Shown: positions 1 to 50,600 of the stretch, one piece after another
Layout of the letters: each line of letters starts with the position of its first letter
Position numbering within the stretch: the stretch's first letter is position 1
NCBI GenBank assembly: GCA_964016885.1
Contig: OZ024740.1
Coordinates: 151,652,001 to 151,716,000 of the forward strand
Length of the DNA: 64,000 nucleotides
Direction of reading: 5' to 3'
Source of the DNA: Eledone cirrhosa
Taxonomy: Eukaryota
Program-made: the position numbers and the translations under genes
The notes under the pieces: generated by a model
Seen by the model: the letters and a program-made list of their open reading frames with translations, nothing else
What the model was told of the DNA's origin: nothing
Database searches by the model: none

Positions 1-400
1 TGGCTCCATCGAGTCTTCTCCTCGGTGTGGGCGACGGAGCGGTTCTCTGGTGACTGGAGCGAGGCAACTCTCCTACCCTTCTTCAAAAAAGGCGACAGGA
101 AACTGTGTTCCAGCTACAGGGGTATCAGTTTAATTGACGTTGCTGCCAAAACCTTCGCAATTCTTCTGCTGAAGAGGTTCCAGGCCATCCGTCAGGGCGG
201 CTTCAGTCCGGGGAGGGGGTGCGATGATCAAATCTTCAATCTCCGGCGTGTCCTGGAGCAATGGTGGGCACATCAACAACCTACCGTCCTCTGCTTCATC
301 GACTTTGCAGCTGCCTTCGACTCGGTAGATCGGGAAGCCCTATGACCTATAATGCAGGCGGACGGCATCCCAGTGAAGCTGCTTCGTCTCATACAAGGCC
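1..400 (+). mobile_element. RTE-clade LINE reverse transcriptase fragment (pseudogenic)
   Basis: ORF 25..345 has non-LTR RT N-terminal motifs: LPFFKKGDRKLCSSYRGISL, QGGF..GRGCDDQIF, FIDFAAAFDSVDREAL. An in-frame stop follows, then PIMQADGIPVKLLRLI. Confidence 0.9.
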
Positions 401-2410: not shown

Positions 2411-3723
2411 GGAATATAGCAAAGGAATATGTATAAAACCATGGGTCCGAAAACTAGCTTCTTGGTCAGTCGCCCTCAAAGTGTTGGCAACTGAATCTAC
2501 TAATGAATATCTGGTGAGGGGGCGAAGGCTTAGAATGCACTACCACCACTCCGTCAAATCTCTTTGAAGGGGAAGAAAGAAAGAAAGAAAGGGAGAAAGA
2601 AGTCAGTGTAAGGGTCATACTACATTCATGCTAGAAAATGCCGCGAAAAAATGCTACTCCAAAGAATCTATAATGGGTTTCTGTATGGTCTAATGTGTGA
2701 ACCGAAGATTGGAACGTTAAACTTATGTTGCGAGTTATAGGATGAAATTAAATTAAATTAAAAATATTAAATTGCAAAATGATAAATTGAAAAATAAGTT
2801 ATTAGAAAATTAAAGATTAAGGTAGCGAGATTTATTTATTTAATGAACTTACGGAGAGAGTCTTATATGAAAAAATTTATCTCGATAAGATATTAGGATG
2901 GGATATAGAGTAAAGATTTCGATTGAGAGTTCCTGTCAGCTCCCCCACCCCCACCACCACCACCACCATGGGTCAGCCAGTCTTCGGTGGTATCGTCCAG
3001 CGAAAGAAATGGAAATTAATTTTTCCGAGTACGCTAGCCCTCCCGGGGCTTAAGGTAGCTACGTTCCTAGAGTACTCTGAAAAATTAATTTCCATTTCTT
3101 TCGCTGGACGATACCACTCGAGCCTGGCTGACTCGTGGTGGTGGTGGGTGGGTGGGGGGGGGGGGTTGCTGACAGGAACTCTCAATCGAAATCTTTATTC
3201 TATATCCCATCCTAATATCTTATCGAGATAAATTTTTTCATATAAAACTCTCTCCGTAAGTTCATTAAATAAATCTCGCTACCTTAATCTTTAATTCTCT
3301 AATAACTTATTTTTCAATTTATCATTTTGCAATTTAATATTTTTAATTTAATTTAATTTCATCCTATAACTCGGAACATAAGTTTAACGTTCCAATCTTC
3401 GGTTCACACATTAGACCATACAGAAACCCATTATAGATTCTTTGGAGTAGCATTTTTTCGCGGCATTTTCTAGCATGAATGTAGTATGACCCTTACACTG
3501 ACTTCTTTCTCCCTTTCTTTCTTTCTTCCCCTTCAAAGAGATTTGACGGAGTGGTGGTAGTGCATTATAAGCCTTCGCCCCCTCACCAGATATTCATTAG
3601 TAGATTCAGTTGCCAACACTTTGAGGGCGACTGGCCGAGAAGCTAGTTGGTCAGTCGTCCTCTTTGTCTCTATCTTTGACTTTTCGGACCCATGGTTTTT
3701 TACATATTCCTTTGTTATATTCC

Positions 3724-6335: not shown

Positions 6336-6416
<81 letters not shown>

Positions 6417-6417
<1 letters not shown>

Positions 6418-6601
6418 GTTATTTCGGGTTGAATCGGAGGTAACCACAGTAAGTAAGGTACTCAATACATAGCAGAGTATAAAGGTTTTAATATAGATGA
6501 GATTCTACAGGACTAGAACTGTTTCATTCTTTAGAAATCATCATGATTTCTAAAGAATGAAACAGTTCTAGTCCTGTAGAATCTCATCTATATTAAAACC
6601 T
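6417..6601. mobile_element. Short fold-back element family A
   Basis: Perfect inverted arms about 6484-6540 / 6544-6600 centred on aaatcatcatgattt. Carries TGATGA..GAAACAG..CTGTA; (TA)n on both sides. Confidence 0.85.
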
Positions 6602-18456: not shown

Positions 18457-18562
<106 letters not shown>

Positions 18563-18573
18563 TGTGTGTGTAT

Positions 18574-19042
18574 AAGTTTATCCCGAGTTCAATCGCGGGT
18601 AACCACAGTAAGTAAGGTACTCAATACATACCAGAGTATAAATATTTAATATAGAAATGGCTTCTACAGGACTAGAACTGTTTCATTCGGGAGAAATCAC
18701 CCGAATAAAACAGTTCTAGTTGTGTAGAAGCCATTTAAATATTTATACTCTGCTATGTATTGAGTACCTTACTTACTGCGGTTACCCCCGATTGAACCTG
18801 GAGAAACTTATATTTTGACACTTACTGTACCCCTCTTAACCAAAGCTGCCGAATGAAACAGTTCTAGTCCTGTAGAAGCCATTTCTGTATTAAATATTTA
18901 TACTCCGCTATGTATTGAGTACCTTACTTACTGTGGTAACCCCCGATTGAACCCGGGATAAACTTATCTTTTAACACTTACTGTGCCCCTCTTAACCAAA
19001 GGCTCCCGAATGAAACAGTTCTAGTCCTGTAGAAGCCATTTC
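18574..19042 (+). mobile_element. Family A: inverted arm plus about 2.2 tandem monomers (148-157 bp)
   Basis: gaat(g/a)aaacagttctagt recurs at 18703, 18851 and 19008. 18574-18697 is an inverted copy. Confidence 0.85.
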
Positions 19043-19184
19043 TCTCTCTCTATATATATATATATGTAAGTATGTATGTATGTACGTATACATACATACA
19101 TACTTACATATAAGTAAGTGCAGTACTAAGAGTGAGAAACGAAATTTCGTTTCATTCTATTCCATTCTATATATATATATATAT

Positions 19185-20096
19185 ACTATAAAGTAAAGTA
19201 TGTCCATAGAATCATTTGATAATATAGATACATCATTTCTTCTCCTAATTAGCATAATTAACCACACAAAAAATCAATTAGACCAGGCTATAAGATTAAA
19301 AGGCACCTATGGACATATTTTACTTTATAGTATATTCCTCTGATTATTTAATTTATTAATTCTTCATTGAGCCATCGTTAATGGTTGCCAAAACACATAT
19401 ATATATCTGTGACTTTGTTTAATTGGTGTATATGTAAATATTTATATTTAATAATCTCCCATAACGTTGAGATGCAATTTGGGCAATATTGGGCTGCGCT
19501 TTCTAGCAACCAACCTACTCGCCGTAAGCAACCAATCACACTCTTTCTGACTTGACCACTGCCACGTCACAGTTCTCAGCCATTTTGAATTCGTGTTTGG
19601 CGGGGGCCACTTCAGAAAATAATCTGTCCTAGCGAGTTTGTCCCCTGAAGAGTTCGAAACTCGAGATTTATCCTTATTAGGATATCTCAAAATGAGAACG
19701 GGACTTAATCCTGGTATGTATATAAGCATTTCTAACTTTAATTTTATACCTAATTATGTATGGTTGACCGTATATTTAATTAATTTCCACGTGCTGTTGA
19801 AATGTTGGGTAAATATTCTACAGCGGTTGGCCGCGAAGACGCTGCTATCGTATATTTACTGTTTCTTCATAGGTGCCTTTTGATCTTATAGCCTGGTCTA
19901 ATTGATTTTTTGTGTGGTTAATTATGCTAATTGGGAGAAGAAATGATGTATATATATTATCAAATGATTCTAGGGACATATTTTACTTTATAGTATATTG
20001 CTCTGATTATTTAATTTATTAATTCTTCATTGAGCCACATCGTGAATGGTTGCCAAAACACATATATATCTGTAACTTTTTTAATTGGTGTATATG

Positions 20097-21020: not shown

Positions 21021-21083
21021 TATATATATATATATATATGTACACACAAACATATATATATATATATAATATATATATAATAT

Positions 21084-21342
21084 AGAAGTGCAAATAGCTT
21101 CTACAGGACTAGAACTCTTTCATTCGAAGGAAATCATCAAAAAATGAATGAATGAAACAGTTCTAATCCTGTAGATGGCATTTCTATATTTAAAAAAATG
21201 TATACTCTGCTATCTATTGAGCACCTTACTTACTGTGGTTAGTCCCGATTGAACCCGGGATACACATGCATATATATATGTATAATATGCATATATATAC
21301 ATATATATATATATATTATATATATTGAACCCGGGATACACA
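21084..21342. mobile_element. Family A fold-back copy
   Basis: ttctacaggactagaactctttcattc...gaatgaaacagttctaatcctgtag, plus the tail tactgtggtt..gattgaacccggg. Confidence 0.8.
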
Positions 21343-23900: not shown

Positions 23901-24397
23901 TATCATTATTGTTGTTGTTGCTATATTATTATTATTTCTTTTGTTACCGTTGTCACTGATTGTTAAACATAGTACAAGTAACACATTGACTAATCGGCCA
24001 ACCTTATTACATGAACTGTAAACAGATGCCAGTATAAACAATTAGTTTAGAACGTAACACTTCAATTCATGGCACTGTGACGAACATAATTCAGCTCATA
24101 ACAACAGGAAATATGGCGGAAATAGTTCGAGCGAAAGTAACAAAATAATACTTCGTATTGCAGTGTTACTGCAGCGAAATGAGGATGGGGGCTTGTGGTA
24201 ATCATAACACAAAAGATTTCATTCACGTTCACAATTATAAAAACTGCAACTACCACTTCAACATCAATACACAATGATATTGATAATTATTAATAATAGT
24301 AACAATGATTTCTTTTTGGAATATTTATCTTTCTTCTCACAAACATTTTGCGCCATTAATATAGTTTTGTATCCTAATAATACTAATAATAATAATA

Positions 24398-25365
24398 CTT
24401 CTGTAGCCTTTTTAAGGTCTCCTCTTTTCAACCAGTTCCATGTCTGTGGATCTCTGAATTCAGTTTTTTTCTCAAAGAAGGTACTATGAAGGGATTTTTC
24501 AGAAAGAGCAGCCTTCATGAAAAATCCCTTTATAGTACCTTATTTGAGAAAACTGAATTCAGAGATCCACAGACATGGAACGGGTTGAAAAGAGGATACC
24601 TTCAAAAGGCTACAGAAGGAATGCTAATGACTGCGCAAAAGCAGGCCTTCAAAACGAAGTGGTTGAAACACCATATTTACAAGGAGGAGGCTAGCCCACT
24701 GTGCAGGATCTATGGAAAGAGAGAGGAGACTGTGATTCACATTGTATCCGAGTTAAAACACCTAGCCCAGACTCACTATAAGGGCTGGAGACATGATGTG
24801 ATGGGCAGGGTGATCCACTGGCACCTATGCAAAGTAAACAATTTACCACATTCTGAGAAGTAGTATGAGCATAAGCCAGAGTCGGTGATAGAAAACGATC
24901 AGGTGAAGGTGCTGTGGGATTTTAGGATACAGACGGACAAGAAACTGGAACACAATAGACCTGACCTGGTGGTTTTGGACAAGGAAAAAAGATCGTGCCT
25001 GATTGTGGATGTAGCCTGCCCATTCGACACGAGAGTGCAAGAGAAGGAGAGGGAGAAAATTAACCGATACCAGGACTTAAAGTGGGAGGTAAAAAGGATT
25101 TGGAACTGCCATGAAGTCAAAGTGGTCCCGATTGTCATAGGCGCACTAGGTACTATCTCAAAAAGTTTCCAGGGATGGTTAAAGAAAATTGGCCCCACCA
25201 CGGTTTTTGGAACGCTTCAAAAAGCATGCTTGCTGGCAACAGCAAGAACCCTCCGATACGTCCTGAATATCTGAGGCTGCAGGTAGTGGCTTGATATTCA
25301 TTTCAACAAACTTTCCAGTTAACTAATATCAATGACTGCGACTCAAAGAACAATAATAATAATAA
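24398..25365 (+). mobile_element. R4/Dong-clade non-LTR retrotransposon 3' end (degenerate CCHC finger and RLE), with 5' fold-back, in (TAA)n
   Basis: CR....EETV.HIVS, WRHD, LWDFRIQTD...HNRPDLVV...LIVDVACPFD...EKINRYQDL and VPIVIGALG form a PD-(D/E)xK restriction-like endonuclease; (AAT)n on both flanks. Confidence 0.9.
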
Positions 25366-31099: not shown

Positions 31100-33195
31100 G
31101 GATAAATCATTCAAAAAGCCTGGCATGGAATTCCGACAAGTTTATGACATCCTACCTTGAAGGTTATCTGTAATCAATACAGGAAGAAGAAAGTCCTACC
31201 AAATATCTGCTACACAAAAGAGGAGAGCCATCAGTCGACAATAAATGTAGTGTTTGTAAAACATTCTTGCGATTCAAAGGATGAAAATTACTTTTATTTT
31301 TACAACCTTGCCACCAGGAAGGTGGCCGGTCAAAAATGTACTCGAAGAAGTGAAGAAGACCTCCGTCAATCTGGTGTTGATTTTATTATTAGATCCCTAA
31401 CATCATTCCCCAAAGCTGTCAGTGATAGTATCGTGACTCTTTCTATGGATCTAATAAACGACAACTCTGCAACATTATTAAGCTCTTACGCCCCAACAAT
31501 TTATTCATCTGAGCAGGATAGCATAACATTTTATTATCAGCTTCACACAATGGTCTCCGCTGTTCTAGACAAGAACAAGCTTGAAATAGGGGAGATGTTA
31601 ATGTTAAAGTTGGAAATTGGTATCAAACATGGCATGATAGCCATGGAGTCGGAGCTACGAACTCAAATGGGCTTAGGCTGCTTTCATCTTGCAAGAAATT
31701 CCATCTTAGCATCACTAATAGCTTTTTTAAGAACTTGCAAACCATACGGCAACATGAATGCATCCTAGATCCAAGGATTGGTATATGATTGACAACGTCA
31801 TCACATACACGTGTCACCTAAAATATTTCAAAATTACTAGTTCTTTTCACTCTTCTTGCTATCATGCACTGTTGCGCAGTAAAGTTCCATTCAATCTTCA
31901 CTGCCCACTAAAAAGCTACCTATCTCCCCCAAGGTTGATGTCGGTGCTTTGAGATACATTGATAGGCGACTGCAACTTTCTGATAAACGATTCATCCCTC
32001 GACAAGAAAGTGCTCAAGGATGCCACCTATGAAGCCTCCATACATGTCTTCGTATTTCCTATGAGAAAACCACAGAATTGGTTTGATGAAAGCAACTCAG
32101 ATGTCCAGAGCCTTACAAGCAAGATGCATAACACACATGGGCTTTGGAATAGAGATTGAATTTCAACAACAGAAATGAAAGCCTATAAAGACTGTAAGCA
32201 ACAAGAAAAGCCCTTTAGAAAGACGAAGGATGTCTGGTGGGCAGTTAAATCAGCTAATCGACAAAAGGCTGTCGATAAAAAGGATTCAGGAGCATTTTAT
32301 AATGGTTAAGAGGCGGTCTATGATCAGAGGAAGAGCAGGTCAAATCTAGTCATGTATTCTAATGGTATGACCCTATACACAGACAAAGCTGAGATATTCT
32401 CCCGATGGAGGGTAAACTTTGAAAAGGTCCTAAATACTGAGTCAATTGTTGATGAAGATGGGATACAATCTATTCCACAAAGGCCAGAGATACCTGAAGT
32501 AGCATTCAACCCAAGCCTGAATGAAGATCAAACACCTATGAAGCAAATGTCACCCAATAAAGTTCCTGGGAAGATTCAAATATGGTGGTCAGAAACGGGT
32601 TCGTAAGGTTCTTCGCGTATCTCTGGAAATCTTGAAAGTCGACCATGTTCCTCAAGACTTCAGAGATGTATCTAAAATTTATCTCTTCAAGAACAAAGGT
32701 AACAAATCTATCTGTGACAACTCTTCTGACATCTCACTTAACTGTATTGTTGCTAGGGTACTTGCCCATGTCATTCTCAACAGAATTACAGCCAGACTCG
32801 TTGATATCTACCCTGAAAACCAATGTGGTTTCCCTAGAGATCGGAGTACTATTAAAATGATATTCTCCTTTAACTTTGTTGTAGAGAAGGTTCATGAAGA
32901 GAACCAAAAACAGTGTATGGTCTTTGTCGACATGACCAAAGCCTTTGACACTGTCAAACGCAAATCTTTCTGGAAACTCTTCAAAAAGATTGGCATATCT
33001 CACAATATGCTAAATGTTATCATTTCTTTTCACGGGGTCATTGAAGCACCAATTATGTCAAATGGTGTCACACATTGTACGAAGCAGGGTTGTAACATGG
33101 CTCCTGTTCTCTTTGCTTTGTTTCTCTCTGAAATACTTCAGTATGCATTTGGCGAATTAGACGCTGGCATCAGATTTGAATGTAAACTTACACAC
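31100..33195 (+). mobile_element. Degraded RTE-BovB-like LINE (APE to RT)
   Basis: ATLLSSYAPT, WQHEC/HPRSKDWYMIDNVI, VPQDFRD..FKNKGNKSICDN..ISL, PENQCGF, VFVDMTKAFDTV and KQGCNMAPVLF. Truncated at (TA)n before YADD. Confidence 0.88.
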
Positions 33196-33210
33196 CAATA
33201 TCTATATATA

Positions 33211-33570
<360 letters not shown>

Positions 33571-33880: not shown

Positions 33881-33904
33881 ATATATATATATATCCATAT
33901 AGAT

Positions 33905-34112
33905 ATGTGAGTCCCGGGTTCAATCGAGGGTAACCACAGTAAAGTACTCACTACATTAGTAGAGTGTATACACAAATTTAATACAAAAATGGCTTCTACA
34001 GGAACAGAACTGTTACATTCGAAGGAAATCATCAAGCATTCCTGATGATTTTCTTCGAATGAAACAGTTCTAGTCCTGTAGAAGCCATTTCTATAGTAAA
34101 TGTTATTCTATA
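33905..34112. mobile_element. Family A fold-back copy
   Basis: Arms about 33975-34034 / 34043-34100; contains a complete HHR on the plus strand. Confidence 0.85.
34036..34086 (+). ncRNA. Type I hammerhead ribozyme, intact core
   Basis: gcattc-CTGATGA(34042)-T-tTTC-ttc-GAA-T-GAAA-CAG-ttctagtc-CTG-TA-gaagcc; GUA site after 34080. Confidence 0.7.
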
Positions 34113-37594: not shown

Positions 37595-37733
37595 ATAGAT
37601 GAAATTCTACAGGACTAGAACTGTTTCCTGAAGATTTCTAAAGAATGAAACAGTTCTAGTCTTGTAGAATCTCATCTATATTAAAACATGTATTGAGTAC
37701 CTTACTTACTGTGGTTACCTCCGATTCAATCCG

Positions 37734-37736
<3 letters not shown>
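37595..37736 (+). mobile_element. Family A fold-back copy with CTGAAGA hammerhead core
   Basis: ttc-CTGAAGA(37628)-T-TTCT-aa-AGAA-T-GAAA-CAG..TTG-TA-gaa. Confidence 0.8.
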
Positions 37737-37821
<85 letters not shown>

Positions 37822-38245: not shown

Positions 38246-38306
<61 letters not shown>

Positions 38307-38408
38307 GTTTATCCCAGGTTCAATCGGGGGTAACCACAGTAAATAAGGTACTCCCACGCACACACAGACACACAGTAAGTAAGGTACACACACACTCACA
38401 CACACACA

Positions 38409-40564: not shown

Positions 40565-41203
40565 GATACGGTCGCTGAACCGCTTGCCAGTCATAAGTCT
40601 CATGAAGTGGTTCTGGAATGTAGAAAGCTTCTGAAGTGACCTTGTCGTCCAATTAACACAGTCAAGACCATATAACACAACTGGTAAGATGTAAGTAACA
40701 AAGATCTTAGCCTTCTAATGATAGGAAACTCGTTTTGATGTTAGTACTTCCTTGTTCTTGTTGAAAGCTGCCCAACCTAGAGCGATGCGATACTGCACAG
40801 CAACCATTCCATTGTTGTTTGATGATAGTTTGGGACCAAGATATACAAACTCCGTAACTTGAGTAATTTGCTGTTTGTAGATTGTGAGATGGAGATTGGT
40901 ATTGTTTTTATCAGTTGTCATACATTTTGTTTTGGAGATGTTGATCTGTAAGCCAGATTCCAGCGAATATTTGGTCAGTAGATTCATAAAGTCTTGCAGA
41001 TCAGTTCTAGAGTAACTCATCATGGCCAGATCGTCTGCATAGCTATAATTTGATAGCATTTTACCTCCTATTTGATAGCCAGAGGAGCATTCTTCTTCAG
41101 TTTGGTAGATAAGTGCAGCTATAACTATACAAAAAAGAAGTGCTGATAGTACATCCTCCTGCTTAACTCCCTTCAACTTGTCTATACAGCATGTAGTTCC
41201 CAA
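40565..41203 (-). mobile_element. LINE RT fragment (RTE-like)
   Basis: GVKQEDVLSALLF, YADD, GLQINISKTK, EFVYLG, RIALGWAAF. Confidence 0.85.
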
Positions 41204-41587
41204 GTGTCTTTTGATATATGCATCATCGTAACTACAGCTTATTCATTCACTATTTCACCAGGTATAAGTGGGCGAAGAAGAAGAAGAAAAAGAAAAAGAA
41301 AAAGAAAAAGAAAAAGAAAAAGAAAAAGAAAAAGAAAAAGAAGACGACGACGACGACATCTGAAAGAGCTGATAGTATTTATAATCAGGAAAACGGCTGG
41401 TAATGTTACACTATGCGTTGATTGCTTATTTCTTTCGTTTATACCCAAACATTGTACCATATTGTATATGTGTGCGTGGATGAATATGAAATTGTCTTCC
41501 TTGGTGTTCGGTTTACATGTATTGTCTTTGAGCAAGACACTTCAATTGCCGTTAGTCCAGTCCATTCAGCTTGCAAAAATGAGATGA

Positions 41588-47680: not shown

Positions 47681-50600
47681 CTACAGAACAATGTAGAGAG
47701 AAGGCCCATTTACACGAGCCATTCTCGCCATTTTCACCCACCTTTCATAAAACTGTCTGGGGCCAAGCATTTCTCTCTCCATCCTGATCCTTCTTCCGAA
47801 GTGGTATCGGAAGAAGTAACCAGGTGTTGGTTGGAGAGAAAGTCACCCGACCTCAGACCTTTCAGGCGCGTCCACCGAAAGACCGCCTCTGCTTCATTTC
47901 TGAAGGGAGGAGGCGGCTTGATGTTCACCACGGACTCGGCGGCCAATCGAATCGGCGCCACACTCGACAGCAGTCGTTCGACGTAGCCCCACAGATCGGC
48001 AACGCCCGGGCAGTGTACCAGTGCGTGCGCAACGGTTTTCTCGTCGCGCACGCATCTGGGACAGATCTTTTTCTCGCGGGATCCCTGCCCGGGCGCCCGT
48101 GTCTGCAGAGCTTTTCTCGAACAGGCAGAGTCCCCCGGTAGCACTGCCAGGCTAGGGACCTCTGGAAGTTGTCCATGGGTCCCGGGCCGAAAGTTCTACC
48201 GAACAGGCTGGCCAGTTTGTCCTCCTCCATGCCTAGAGACTCTCCAAGGGTGTCGTCGCCCCTGCTAGCCACCAGCCCTCTATAGAATGTCGAGATGGAT
48301 TCTCCACTGATAATTGGGTCCGCTTGCCAGAGAGCCGTGAGCGCCTGGGCACACTCGGTGTGCCAGTTGCCCAGTTTTCTCGGTCTTTGCTTCACCCAGG
48401 ATTGTAGCTCGGTGAGCGAGACGAGCTGTGGAAAGGCTCGCTTCACAAACGAGGCCCACACCGGCTGACCGGTGAGGAATACCTGTAGATGCCGTAGCCT
48501 CAATGCGTGCCTACGGAACAACAGGCACGGCATACCCAGCCCTCCTTTCGAAGGGTGCTGGCAGCAGATGAATCTCCTCACCATGGGAGGCCGCTTCTTC
48601 CAGAGGAACTGGAAGAGCATGTGCTCCATGATGGTGAGCGTTTCCTTAGGGCAAGGCACGACGGTCAGGCGGTAGTAGATGACGGACGCTATGTAAGCGT
48701 TCGCCACCTCCGCCCGACCTTTCAGTGATAGTTTGCACTTGGCCCACTTCTGGGTCAGCGCAAACACCCTGCTCGTCACCTCGCCCCAATTCTTCTCCAC
48801 CTGGAGGTCCGGTCCGAACCAGACCCCGAGCAGCTTCACCGGGCCCTCCGTCCACCGTCCGACGACACCGTCTAACGGCATCGGTTTGCCCCCCCCCCCC
48901 CGTTCCGACTTGCAAACCGACTGACTTGTCCCGGTTCAGCCTAGCCCCCATCAGCCTTTCGTATTCCTCCAGTAGGGTGGCGATCGCCACGATTTCCGAG
49001 GCGTCCGCCACCATTACTGTTACGTCGTCGGCATAGGCCGAGACCGCTTTGTGCAATCCCGGTTCCAGGGGTATGCCCCGCAGCAACTCCAACTTCCGCA
49101 GCAGTGGCTCGAGAGCCAATACGTACAGAATGGAGGAGAGGGGGCACCCCTGCCTGATGGACCGGCTGATTTGAAACGGCTCCGAGAGGTAGCCGTTTAA
49201 CCCTAGAGCAGACGTTGCCACTGTGCATGGCAGAAATCCCCCCCCCCTGAAAACGGGTCCGAAGCCCGCCGCCGCTAGCACCGCATCCAGGTAACCATGG
49301 TCGACCCTATCGAACGTCTTAGATTGATCCAAGTTGATCAGGGCCCCACCAAAGCCGGGTTCGTTCCCAACCCTCTCTACGATGTATCGCATGAGGTGGA
49401 GGTTGTCGTGAATGGACCTGGACGGGATAGCGCATGACTGCGCGTCTCCCACCAAGCAATCCACCACAAGCGCCAACCTCTTCGCTAACACCTTGGCCAA
49501 AATCTGTAACTCTGCATTCAGCAGAGTTATGGGCCTAAAGTTACTTAAGTCGTCCCCCTTGCTCTCGTCCTTCCTCACTAGCGTGACTACGCCCTTGGTC
49601 ACAGAACAGGGAATTCTCCCGTTCTGTTGCCAGTTGCAATAGACAGCCTCGAGGAGTTTGGAGAACAAGATCGGCATAGCTAAATAAAGTTCGTATGGTA
49701 GACCATCGAGACCCGGAGATTTGCGCCTGCTGCATTGGCTGAGCGCTTCCCCGATTTCAGTGGCTGTGATTGGCTTTTCGCAGCACTCCGCTTCGCCGCT
49801 CGAAAGACGCGGTAGACCGTCGAGGTATGGACCGAAGTCAACATCCCCGCCGCCTCCGAACGGTCGAGCAAAGTGCCTTTAAAAGGCCTCGCACATCCGC
49901 TCAAGTTCAAGGATCACCCGTCCATCCTGGTCTCGCAAAGACCGAATGGTGGATTTAATCCCACTCTTGGCTTCTGTCACGCGGGCCCTAAACAGCTTTG
50001 GTCCCCTCGTTTCCTAAAGCACGTATTTTACTTCGGACAACGCAGCCTTCGTGCTTCGCGTCAAAGAACTGGCACAACGCCGTTCTCGACGCTAACACTC
50101 TGGCCACGTCTCCGCTCATAATCGCCTCTTCTAGTTTATCTGTCAACTCCCTTTCCCTCCTATTTTTATTCGCCGCTAGTTCCTTACTGTAATCTATCGA
50201 ACTTACTCTAATCTCTCTCTTTAGAGATACCCACCACCTGCTGTTGACGATCGCACCCGTCACCGCATCTTAACTAAGCTACTAATCCGGTTCCTGTAAG
50301 CTTCCTTTGCCGGCAAGGACAAGTTCATCTTCCAGTAACCGGGACCCTGTCTATGCGTTCTATCAAGGTTGACCACGCAGGTCACTAATTTGTGATCTGA
50401 ATAGCCAACCATGAGCAATTCTGGACAACTAAATATGTCCCTATCCTTACTCCTAACCAAAAACCTATCTAGGTACGATCTAGATTGACCACTGCGGTTT
50501 GCCCAGGTCCAGGTTGGCACAGTTGGAAAATCTAGTCGAAATCTATCGACCAGGTCGTATCGATCGAGTAACCCCTTGAGGCTGCTACACCCCCCCCCCC

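What the first reader, a model, noticed from the sequence alone, without database searches (positions are those of the whole stretch)
18574..19042. Tandem ~157-bp multimer whose monomers have lost the catalytic box
Seen: monomers join head to tail, and both junctions read (g)gct.ccgaatgaaac. Intact family A copies (34036) imply ggcttc-CTGATGA-tttctcccgaatgaaac, so about 14 nt are deleted and the full monomer is about 170 nt. Known: non-LTR retrozymes are monomers of a few hundred nt or less that occur in tandem and form circRNA. Inference: rolling reverse transcription of a circle, or insertion of an uncleaved multimer from a ribozyme-dead template.
Basis: partly seen in the sequence, partly recalled or inferred. 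Interest (0 to 1): 0.7.

Follow-up and report, generated by a model that had tools for sequence, protein, structure and literature searches.

The report
Penelope end-stub with doubled unit
This 470-base insert is a scrap of the ribozyme-bearing start of a common Penelope-type jumping gene, with one mirror-image arm and two head-to-tail units that share a 14-base loss found nowhere else in the genome; it was likely copied from an ordinary capped, uncut RNA and then doubled once, rather than rolled off an RNA circle.

Summary
Partly confirmed. There are two direct units (periods 148 and 157) and a 39-nt partial. Both junctions lack the same 14 nt of a type I hammerhead core. The first 128 nt, however, are an inverted arm that keeps part of the 'lost' stretch. 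The unit is the pLTR/5'UTR of a Hydra-clade Penelope-like element (at least 1,292 intact-core copies). The layout is the family's usual stub: the two ends of inverted inserts pair in a fixed way (38 of 44), and 22 other loci carry the same re-entry junction once. A non-native G precedes the ribozyme's first base (10 of 15 junctions; 76 of 100 listed sister copies), 30 nt after a TATA-like box. This points to a capped, uncleaved linear RNA, not a circle. The dead junction is unique to this locus, and no source copy turned up. The units share only one common variant, so doubling came early: a DNA slip (about 0.5) or a second RT jump (about 0.33). A circle is about 0.08. Earlier scan notes describe similar Penelope stutters in other genomes. 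The locus is ordinary; the family's cap-to-site-C jump is a testable route to PLE tandems and retrozyme birth.

The parts
18473..18571 (.). (TG)n microsatellite, preceded by (AT)n; left flank and target region
   Evidence: Tandem Repeats Finder; flanks printed. No target-site duplication can be defined in the microsatellite.
18572..18699 (-). Inverted arm: pLTR positions +11..+138, outer end at family end-site B; keeps TGA of the CUGAUGA box and stem II
   Evidence: I1, 94% over 122 nt; 3 substitutions against the family majority
18700..18842 (+). Direct unit M1: +19..+169 (site C), with a 7-nt and a 1-nt deletion and 11 substitutions
   Evidence: its start is bridged by an X1 contig
18843..18848 (+). 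Junction 1: aa + gct (+2..+4) + g, then +20; core +5..+18 missing
   Evidence: the same aa-gct join with an intact core is at L131
18849..18998 (+). Direct unit M2: +20..+169, 4 substitutions
18999..19004 (+). Junction 2: aa + ggct (+1..+4), then +19; 14-nt core deletion between CT microhomologies
   Evidence: bridged by an X1 contig; the same aa-ggct join with a different core deletion is at L101
19005..19043 (+). Partial unit M3: +19..+57 (GAAA, stem III, GUA cleavage triplet, 3' strand of stem I); outer end at family end-site A
   Evidence: (0 of 38 differences from M2)
19044..19066 (.). (CT)n(AT)n right flank
33901..34104 (.).

Best explanation
The insert is a non-coding stub of a Hydra-clade Penelope-like element (one inverted arm, two direct units, one partial), likely written into an AT/TG microsatellite by the element's reverse transcriptase from a linear, capped, uncleaved RNA, and its second unit was most likely added by an early DNA-level slip. 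Steps: (1) The RNA likely starts at the first G of hammerhead stem I, 30 nt after a TATA-like box (position shown; start site inferred from the extra G). (2) Both strands of the target are likely primed, one at site A (about +57..+73) and one at site B (about +138) (end pairing shown; priming inferred from Frangieh 2024). (3) The A-primed cDNA crosses the uncut cleavage site (shown). Here it likely skipped +18..+5 by a CT microhomology, reached +1, jumped to site C (+169), copied one unit and was joined head-to-head to the B arm (junction geometry shown at 22 other loci; the jump is inferred). (4) The unit plus its dead junction was then likely doubled between the two 39-nt direct repeats (+19..+57), at or soon after insertion (inferred). 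The locus has no catalytic box and would not self-cleave. Confidence in steps 1-3 is about 0.85-0.9; in step 4 about 0.5.
For: PLE identity: family copies run on into an ORF at +183. A sister element with an 83%-identical pLTR region (448 nt) has a 745-aa ORF with YRDD, DKT, RWR, CxCX5C, VYK..YIG and C-terminal CxxC/CxH, matching the Hydra description in PMC8557442 section 11. Fixed ends: 38 of 44 inverted inserts pair an A end with a B end; in the subset chosen only on the core motif, 13 of 17 do. Cap-like G: native -1 is C; G is at -1 in 9 of 12 and 10 of 15 site-C junctions. In the sister subfamily (+1 = A), 76 of the first 100 listed of 2,298 non-C copies have G. All 20 G loci of 30 fetched are junction copies, 12 of 20 without microhomology to explain the G (my reading). 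An extra G marks capped full-length L1 cDNA (PMC11702581, passage). Site C: in 22 of 22 other C-junction loci the downstream piece ends at +45..+79, never at B, and none has a second junction. Single origin of the deletion: 2 of 2 genome matches are here; no promoter-bearing deleted copy was found; GG before +17 is not enriched (3 of 30); a different core deletion occurs at the single junction of L101. HHR cleavage is not needed for insertion in vitro (PMC11167929).
Against: M1 and M2 share only one non-junction variant (+145 G>A, also in 5 of 30 other copies), against 10 and 3 private ones. A DNA duplication must therefore be early (estimate 13% of the locus age, upper 95% bound 46%), which fits a second RT pass equally well. 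The two junctions differ by one G and one base, and each form occurs on its own elsewhere (L131, L101), as two separate jumps would give. M1 begins at +19, exactly the deletion breakpoint; only 2 of 22 comparable pieces start at +17..+19. No other full-unit locus has duplicated. The source search needed 19 exact bases, so a diverged source could be missed. The Pfam GIY-YIG match is below its cut-off (E 0.014), and no RT family was hit. Start site, capping and ribozyme activity were not tested.
Confidence: 0.5

Rival explanations
1. Pseudo-rolling on a linear RNA: the same RT jumped twice from the capped 5' end back to site C of one short RNA that already lacked the core (or was skipped the same way twice). 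All direct units would then be one cDNA, with the B arm made from an intact RNA.
For: The units share almost no derived change, so they date from about the time of insertion. The two junction forms match independent joins at L131 and L101. M1 starts at the deletion breakpoint. A-rich inserts at site C (AA here; six A's in L037) could be a tailed RNA 3' end. Repeated jumping on a linear RNA is established for DRT2 (PMC12039810, passages).
Against: It needs a core-deleted template: none was found with its promoter (0 matches) and there is no sibling excess (3 of 30). 0 of 22 other C-junction loci show a second jump. Two RNAs of different type are needed because the inverted arm keeps +11..+18.
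Confidence: 0.33
2. One reading: rolling reverse transcription of a covalent 157-171-nt RNA circle (non-LTR retrozyme cycle).
For: There are more than two unit lengths with a repeated junction, and the unit size is in the retrozyme range (about 170-400 nt, PMC7229834 passage). Circles were proposed as the source of PLE tandems (PMC4209133). One intact junction sequence recurs at 4 loci.
Against: The unit has no catalytic box on either strand, so it cannot cut itself out. The junction lies at +169/+1, not at the cleavage site (+45/+46), and has no GT donor for back-splicing (native bases after C are TCACC). Family junctions are heterogeneous and mostly carry an extra G. No other array of 2 or more full units appeared among the 40 best-scored candidates or the 22 junction loci. 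The 4 identical-junction loci share no variant across all four, and theirs is the simplest possible join (C end + G + +1).
Confidence: 0.08
3. Late unequal crossing-over (an incipient minisatellite), or an assembly error that created M1 and junction 1.
For: Junction 1 is not covered by X1 or X3 contigs. Local amplification of pLTR ends is proposed in bioRxiv 10.64898/2026.07.22.740005.
Against: M1 and M2 differ at 15 of 148 aligned sites, too many for a recent duplication or a collapse error. An X1 contig carries M1's private start with 0 differences. A hole in the contigs proves nothing according to the tool.
Confidence: 0.09

Closest known systems
Hydra clade of C-terminal EN+ Penelope-like elements (Craig et al. 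2021, PMC8557442; section 11, passages and supplement rows read)
   Same: Short single ORF with DKT, RW[K/R], CxCX5C linker and C-terminal CxxC/CxH (sister element L120); canonical hammerhead; (TA)n targets; partial tandem plus inverted 5'-truncated copy plus optional tail.
   Different: This insert has no ORF. Its hammerhead differs from that listed for Hydra-1_Obim, and the family motif is absent from the stored, cut supplement, so it is another family. The tail (A to B) is about 65-80 nt rather than 30-40. No tree was built.
Poseidon element PAc of Anolis: internal two-site RT initiation (Frangieh et al. 2024, PMC11167929; main text read)
   Same: Two fixed end-sites, both target strands extended, AT-rich targets, uncleaved RNA as template.
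   Different: Here the two sites lie upstream of the ORF. There is a third re-entry site (C) seen only on the A-ended arm, and a G-marked 5' end at the first base of stem I. Neither is in the text I read.
Metazoan non-LTR retrozymes (Cervera and de la Pena 2020, PMC7229834, passages; Li et al. 2026, bioRxiv 10.64898/2026.07.22.740005, abstract to discussion)
   Same: Head-to-tail units of about 170 nt derived from a PLE pLTR with a type I hammerhead motif.
   Different: [quoted passage not shown] The junction is private to one locus, there is no dispersed family of arrays, and no circle is shown.
Inverted and palindromic pLTR inserts of Adineta Penelope elements (PMC3846280, passages) and D. 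virilis tandems (PMC2377424, passages)
   Same: Two direct pLTRs plus one inverted pLTR, head-to-head palindromes, TATA plus Inr-like motif in the pLTR.
   Different: Those papers invoke self-priming or leave tandem formation unexplained. Here the end pairing and extra G favour two cDNAs run to a capped 5' end.
DRT2 concatemer synthesis and telomerase repeat addition (PMC12039810, passages)
   Same: Tandem cDNA from a linear RNA by a jump from the template's 5' side back to a fixed 3' site.
   Different: Those are precise, processive and functional. Here the jump is imprecise, rare (about 22 loci against more than 1,292 copies) and nearly always single. This is an analogy only.

Membership tests
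EN+ Penelope-like element (Hydra clade) insertion stub | Unit is the pLTR/5'UTR of an element with a single RT plus C-terminal GIY-YIG ORF | tested here: met
   Copies continue into the ORF at +183. Sister L120 has an 83%-identical pLTR region and a 745-aa ORF. Pfam GIY-YIG is only E 0.014, below its cut-off, so identity rests on motifs.
EN+ Penelope-like element (Hydra clade) insertion stub | Hydra motifs: DKT, RWK-like, CxCX5C linker, CxxC and CxH around the conserved E and N | tested here: met
   All are present in L120 (RWR in place of RWK). RWR or DKT is also seen in own-family fragments.
EN+ Penelope-like element (Hydra clade) insertion stub | Phylogenetic placement of the RT in the Hydra clade | not tested
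   No reference proteins were in hand and no tree was built.
EN+ Penelope-like element (Hydra clade) insertion stub | Partial tandem plus adjacent inverted 5'-truncated copy, tail at one end only | tested here: met
   Window layout <[11..138] >[19..169] >[20..169] >[19..57]; A+B end pairing in 38 of 44 inverted inserts.
EN+ Penelope-like element (Hydra clade) insertion stub | Insertion into (TA)n-type microsatellite | tested here: met
   Flanks; same context at most fetched loci.
Type I hammerhead ribozyme (intact family copies) | CUGANGA and GAAA boxes, NUH triplet, stems I and III | tested here: met
   Stem I 6 bp, stem III 4 bp, GUA triplet. The hammerhead fold is -8.3 against an MFE of -9.3 kcal/mol.
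Type I hammerhead ribozyme (intact family copies) | Stem II closed by G10.1-C11.1 | tested here: not met
   Stem II is 3 bp, closed by U.U. A U.U at the base of helix II is described for axolotl HHR_Amex2 (PMC7229834 passage). No hammerhead family appears among the 150 best Rfam rows listed of 211.
Type I hammerhead ribozyme (intact family copies) | Self-cleavage activity | not testable with these tools
   Needs an in vitro assay.
Non-LTR retrozyme | [quoted passage not shown] | tested here: not met
   0 CTGANGA boxes in 18561-19060 on either strand; criterion from bioRxiv 10.64898/2026.07.22.740005.
Non-LTR retrozyme | Unit spreads as a dispersed family of tandem arrays with a shared junction | tested here: not met
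   The junction is unique to this locus; no other two-unit array among 40 scored candidates or 22 junction loci. These searches are exact or capped, so they are lower bounds.
Non-LTR retrozyme | Monomeric linear and circular RNA | not testable with these tools
   No RNA run was on offer.

The most novel reading that the evidence does not exclude
Hydra-clade Penelope RT re-uses one short capped RNA in cycles: it runs to the cap at the foot of the hammerhead, jumps back to a fixed site just before the start codon and copies again. This would be a telomerase/DRT2-like repeat addition on a linear template by the sister group of telomerase RT. It would build PLE tandems and give birth to two-hammerhead, retrozyme-sized units de novo without any RNA circle, and this locus would be a preserved two-cycle product.
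Probability: 0.3. Interest if true: 0.7.

Novelty: new member of a known kind. Interest (0 to 1): 0.38.

Why it matters
The locus itself is a decayed, ribozyme-dead by-product. The family evidence gathered to explain it bears on two open questions: why PLEs form tandems (left open in PMC2377424) and how non-LTR retrozymes arise from pLTRs (bioRxiv 10.64898/2026.07.22.740005). Genomic footprints place the RNA's likely capped 5' end at the first base of hammerhead stem I. They show cDNA crossing the uncut cleavage site, and a repeatable jump from that end to one site that yields units of about 170 nt. L008 and L043 hold two full-length hammerhead motifs 167-171 nt apart, each now with a point change in one core. 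This argues against circles as the usual template in this family and gives exact coordinates for a biochemical test. Young intact sister ORFs are present in the genome (many 758-aa open frames). Two-site priming, inverted tandems and the extra-G signature are each known. I did not find the site-C jump or the stem-I start in literature searches (open-access full text only). Similar Penelope stutters were noted earlier in this scan.

Tried and rejected
tRNA-derived SINE: the minus strand has A/B-box-like stretches (judged by eye and recall; no tRNA scan was run). Rejected because copies are continuous with a PLE ORF and upstream pLTR on the plus strand. MITE or miRNA hairpin: Rfam hits at the family copies and microsatellites are all below gathering score. 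A core-deleted master subfamily: L046 and L047 carry the same 18-mer at inversion junctions, and L047 shares the +58 variant with M2 (4 of 127 copies do). But GG is 3 of 30 among copies breaking at +17, as chance gives, and there is no promoter-bearing deleted copy (exact search, weak absence). Back-splicing: no GT after site C. M1 from a different subfamily than M2: M1's variants are scattered singly over other copies, with no linked haplotype except +40/+41 in L034. Expression: no RNA holder listed; this is no evidence either way. A one-unit allele: searches list 'skip' joints, but these come from other family copies; other samples (X6, X21, X22) and the other species (X4) do not cover the locus usefully. 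PDB sequence search gave nothing at E below 0.17. The ESM Atlas gave no result. A direct count of three-hammerhead arrays could not be run; a DNA query stood in and scores only 40 candidates. Site-C jumps were seen in 0 of 30 sister-subfamily loci, too few to test a roughly 1-2% event. Dropped before counts: loci overlapping the window's own insert, and duplicates (101 to 75 loci; 116 to 76; L054). The TATA offset printed (-153) is an upstream copy; the adjacent one reads at -30 in the printed sequence. bioRxiv supplements were not seen, and the Craig et al. supplement is cut, so a prior listing of this family is not excluded.

Full report
1. What is there. The stretch lies between a (TG)n tract (18473-18571) and a (CT)n(AT)n tract. 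Self-comparison gives four pieces: an inverted arm 18572-18699, direct units M1 (18700-18842) and M2 (18849-18998), and a 39-nt partial M3 (19005-19043). Spacings are 148 and 157 nt. The junctions read cttaacca-aa-gct-g-ccgaat and cttaacca-aa-ggct-cccgaat. With +1 at the first G of the intact motif, the pieces are +11..+138 (inverted), +19..+169, +20..+169 and +19..+57. Both junctions lack +5..+18 (14 nt, including CTGATGA); the inverted arm keeps +11..+18. No CTGANGA occurs on either strand. Contigs of run X1 bridge the inversion junction and junction 2 without differences; junction 1 is uncovered (X1 may be the source sample).

2. What the unit is. The window is G000:C1:151652001-151716000 in a 3.0-Gb assembly. 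The intact 28-nt core has 1,292 exact copies. In longer copies the unit is preceded by about 175 nt or more of pLTR with TATAAATA at -30 and followed by an ORF at +183. A sister element (L120; pLTR region 83% identical over 448 nt) has a 745-aa ORF with YRDD, RWR, DKT, CxCX5C, VYK..YIG and CxxC/CxH motifs, matching the Hydra clade as described in PMC8557442 section 11. Pfam gives only GIY-YIG at E 0.014, below cut-off; PDB gives nothing; no tree was made. Hydra-1_Obim in that paper's supplement has a different hammerhead. The intact motif folds as a type I hammerhead: stem I +1..6/+46..51, CUGAUGA, a weak 3-bp stem II closed by U.U, GAAA, a 4-bp stem III and cleavage triplet GUA at +43..45 (-8.3 against MFE -9.3 kcal/mol). 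Activity is untested.

3. How the family inserts. Outer ends fall at A (+50..+85) or B (+125..+146). Of 44 inverted inserts (75 distinct loci plus the window examined), 38 pair A with B; in the 29 loci chosen only on the core motif, 13 of 17 do. This matches the two-site, two-strand priming shown in vitro for an Anolis Poseidon element, where ribozyme mutants insert normally (PMC11167929). It also matches the tandem/inverted/tail layout in PMC8557442. Inner ends pile up at +1 (53 of the pieces starting at or before +30; that query began at +1, so native-upstream copies are included). In the unselected set, 12 of 21 junction copies keep +1/+2 and 9 of these have G at -1, several explicable by microhomology. 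The sister subfamily is a cleaner test because its +1 is A and native -1 is C. Of 2,298 copies with another base at -1, the first 100 listed are 76 G, 13 T and 11 A (counted from the listing). All 20 G loci among 30 fetched are junction copies, and in 12 of the 20 the neighbouring sequence does not supply the G. An extra G is the mark of capped full-length L1 cDNA (PMC11702581). I infer a capped RNA that starts at stem I, 30 nt after the TATA-like box, and is copied uncut.

4. The tandem junction. A join of site C (+169..+173, just before the ATG) to +1/+2 with an intact core occurs at 12 loci or 15 (looser pattern). With L002, L005, L008, L012 and L094, L101, L109 this makes 22. Junction fills vary (G, TA, TCAG, TAAAAAAG, TCAA and others); G is at -1 in 9 of 12 and 10 of 15. 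In 22 of 22 the downstream piece ends at +45..+79, never at B, and most have an inverted B arm, exactly as in the window. None has a second junction, and a two-unit DNA query found no other full two-unit match among 40 scored candidates. The join is not at the cleavage site and has no splice donor, so it is not a ribozyme or back-splice ligation point. It is best read as an RT jump from the RNA's 5' end to C (inference).

5. The dead junction. It is unique: 2 of 2 genome matches are here. Its 18-mer occurs at two other loci, both inversion joins, but GG is 3 of 30 among copies breaking at +17. No promoter-bearing copy with a core deletion was found (exact match only). L101 has the same aa-ggct join with a different core deletion at a single junction, and L131 has the aa-gct join with an intact core. 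Core loss therefore does not need an array, and array length cannot be tested against HHR loss with one array.

6. When the doubling happened. Against the family majority the inverted arm has 3 substitutions, M2 has 4, M1 has 11 plus two deletions, and M3 has none. M1 and M2 share only +145 G>A, which 5 of 30 other copies also have. The share of the locus's age before doubling is estimated at 13%, with an upper 95% bound of 46%. A deletion with one origin followed by an early slip between the 39-nt repeats (best, 0.5) and two RT jumps on one core-less RNA (0.33) both fit. The first needs no missing source locus, and L101 is a precedent for the skip. The second explains the early date, the small junction difference and M1's start at the breakpoint. 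A covalent circle (0.08) has no way to form and no family footprint.

7. Comparison and verdict. It works like a known PLE insertion and fails the retrozyme test (no complete HHR in any unit; criterion in bioRxiv 10.64898/2026.07.22.740005). That paper derives retrozymes from pLTRs; PMC4209133 proposed circles for PLE tandems; PMC2377424 left tandem formation open. I did not find the stem-I start or the site-C jump in searches. Earlier scan notes on other DNA reached similar 'Penelope stutter' readings (unchecked AI notes); no look-alike sequence or nearby note was listed. Papers seen: parts 1-3 of 5 of the bioRxiv text; parts 1-2 of 4 of PMC11167929 and PMC4209133; passages of PMC7229834, PMC3846280, PMC2377424, PMC11702581 and PMC12039810; passages, section 11 and supplement rows of PMC8557442. 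Verdict: new member of a known kind; interest 0.38, carried by the family-level footprints rather than by this locus.

Noticed in passing
G000 genome-wide; L140-L169; window 6412-6597 and 37605-37738: A younger sister subfamily (stem I begins AGAUUC) has at least 2,298 copies with a non-native base at -1, mostly G, including near-perfect head-to-head palindromes of two arms. Many intact 758-aa frames of related elements exist.
   Followed up: partly
L008 1473-1745; L043 1346-1587: Inserts holding two full-length hammerhead motifs 167-171 nt apart, made by the site-C junction; each now has a point change in one core. Candidate newborn retrozyme dimers.
   Followed up: partly
L037 about 1500-1533: Site-C junction with six A's before the extra G, possibly the remnant of a tailed RNA 3' end at about +170.
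   Followed up: no
window 21069-21265, 33901-34104, 38301-38390: Further two-arm stubs or fragments of the same PLE family.
   Followed up: partly
window 19181-19335 (high depth to 19380): Another high-copy repeat right of the finding, with 29-nt inverted ends 97 nt apart; MITE-like or another palindromic stub.
   Followed up: no
window 2880-3228 and 24398-24618: Long near-perfect hairpins (86-96% complementary arms) that give sub-threshold Rfam miRNA hits; the second overlaps a LINE-like reading frame (24396-24863, family recalled, not tested).
   Followed up: no
window 19645-19672: CTGAAGA followed 4 nt later by GAAAC: hammerhead-like boxes with too short a stem II, probably chance.
   Followed up: no
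window 47925-49878 (-), 32542-33351 (+), 40715-41242 (-): Broken non-LTR reverse-transcriptase-like reading frames (identity recalled from motifs, not scanned).
   Followed up: no
family pLTR +1..+51: If the RNA starts at +1, self-cleavage at +45 would remove the cap from the element's own mRNA 137 nt before the ATG, so the ribozyme could act as a translation or stability switch (inference).
   Followed up: no
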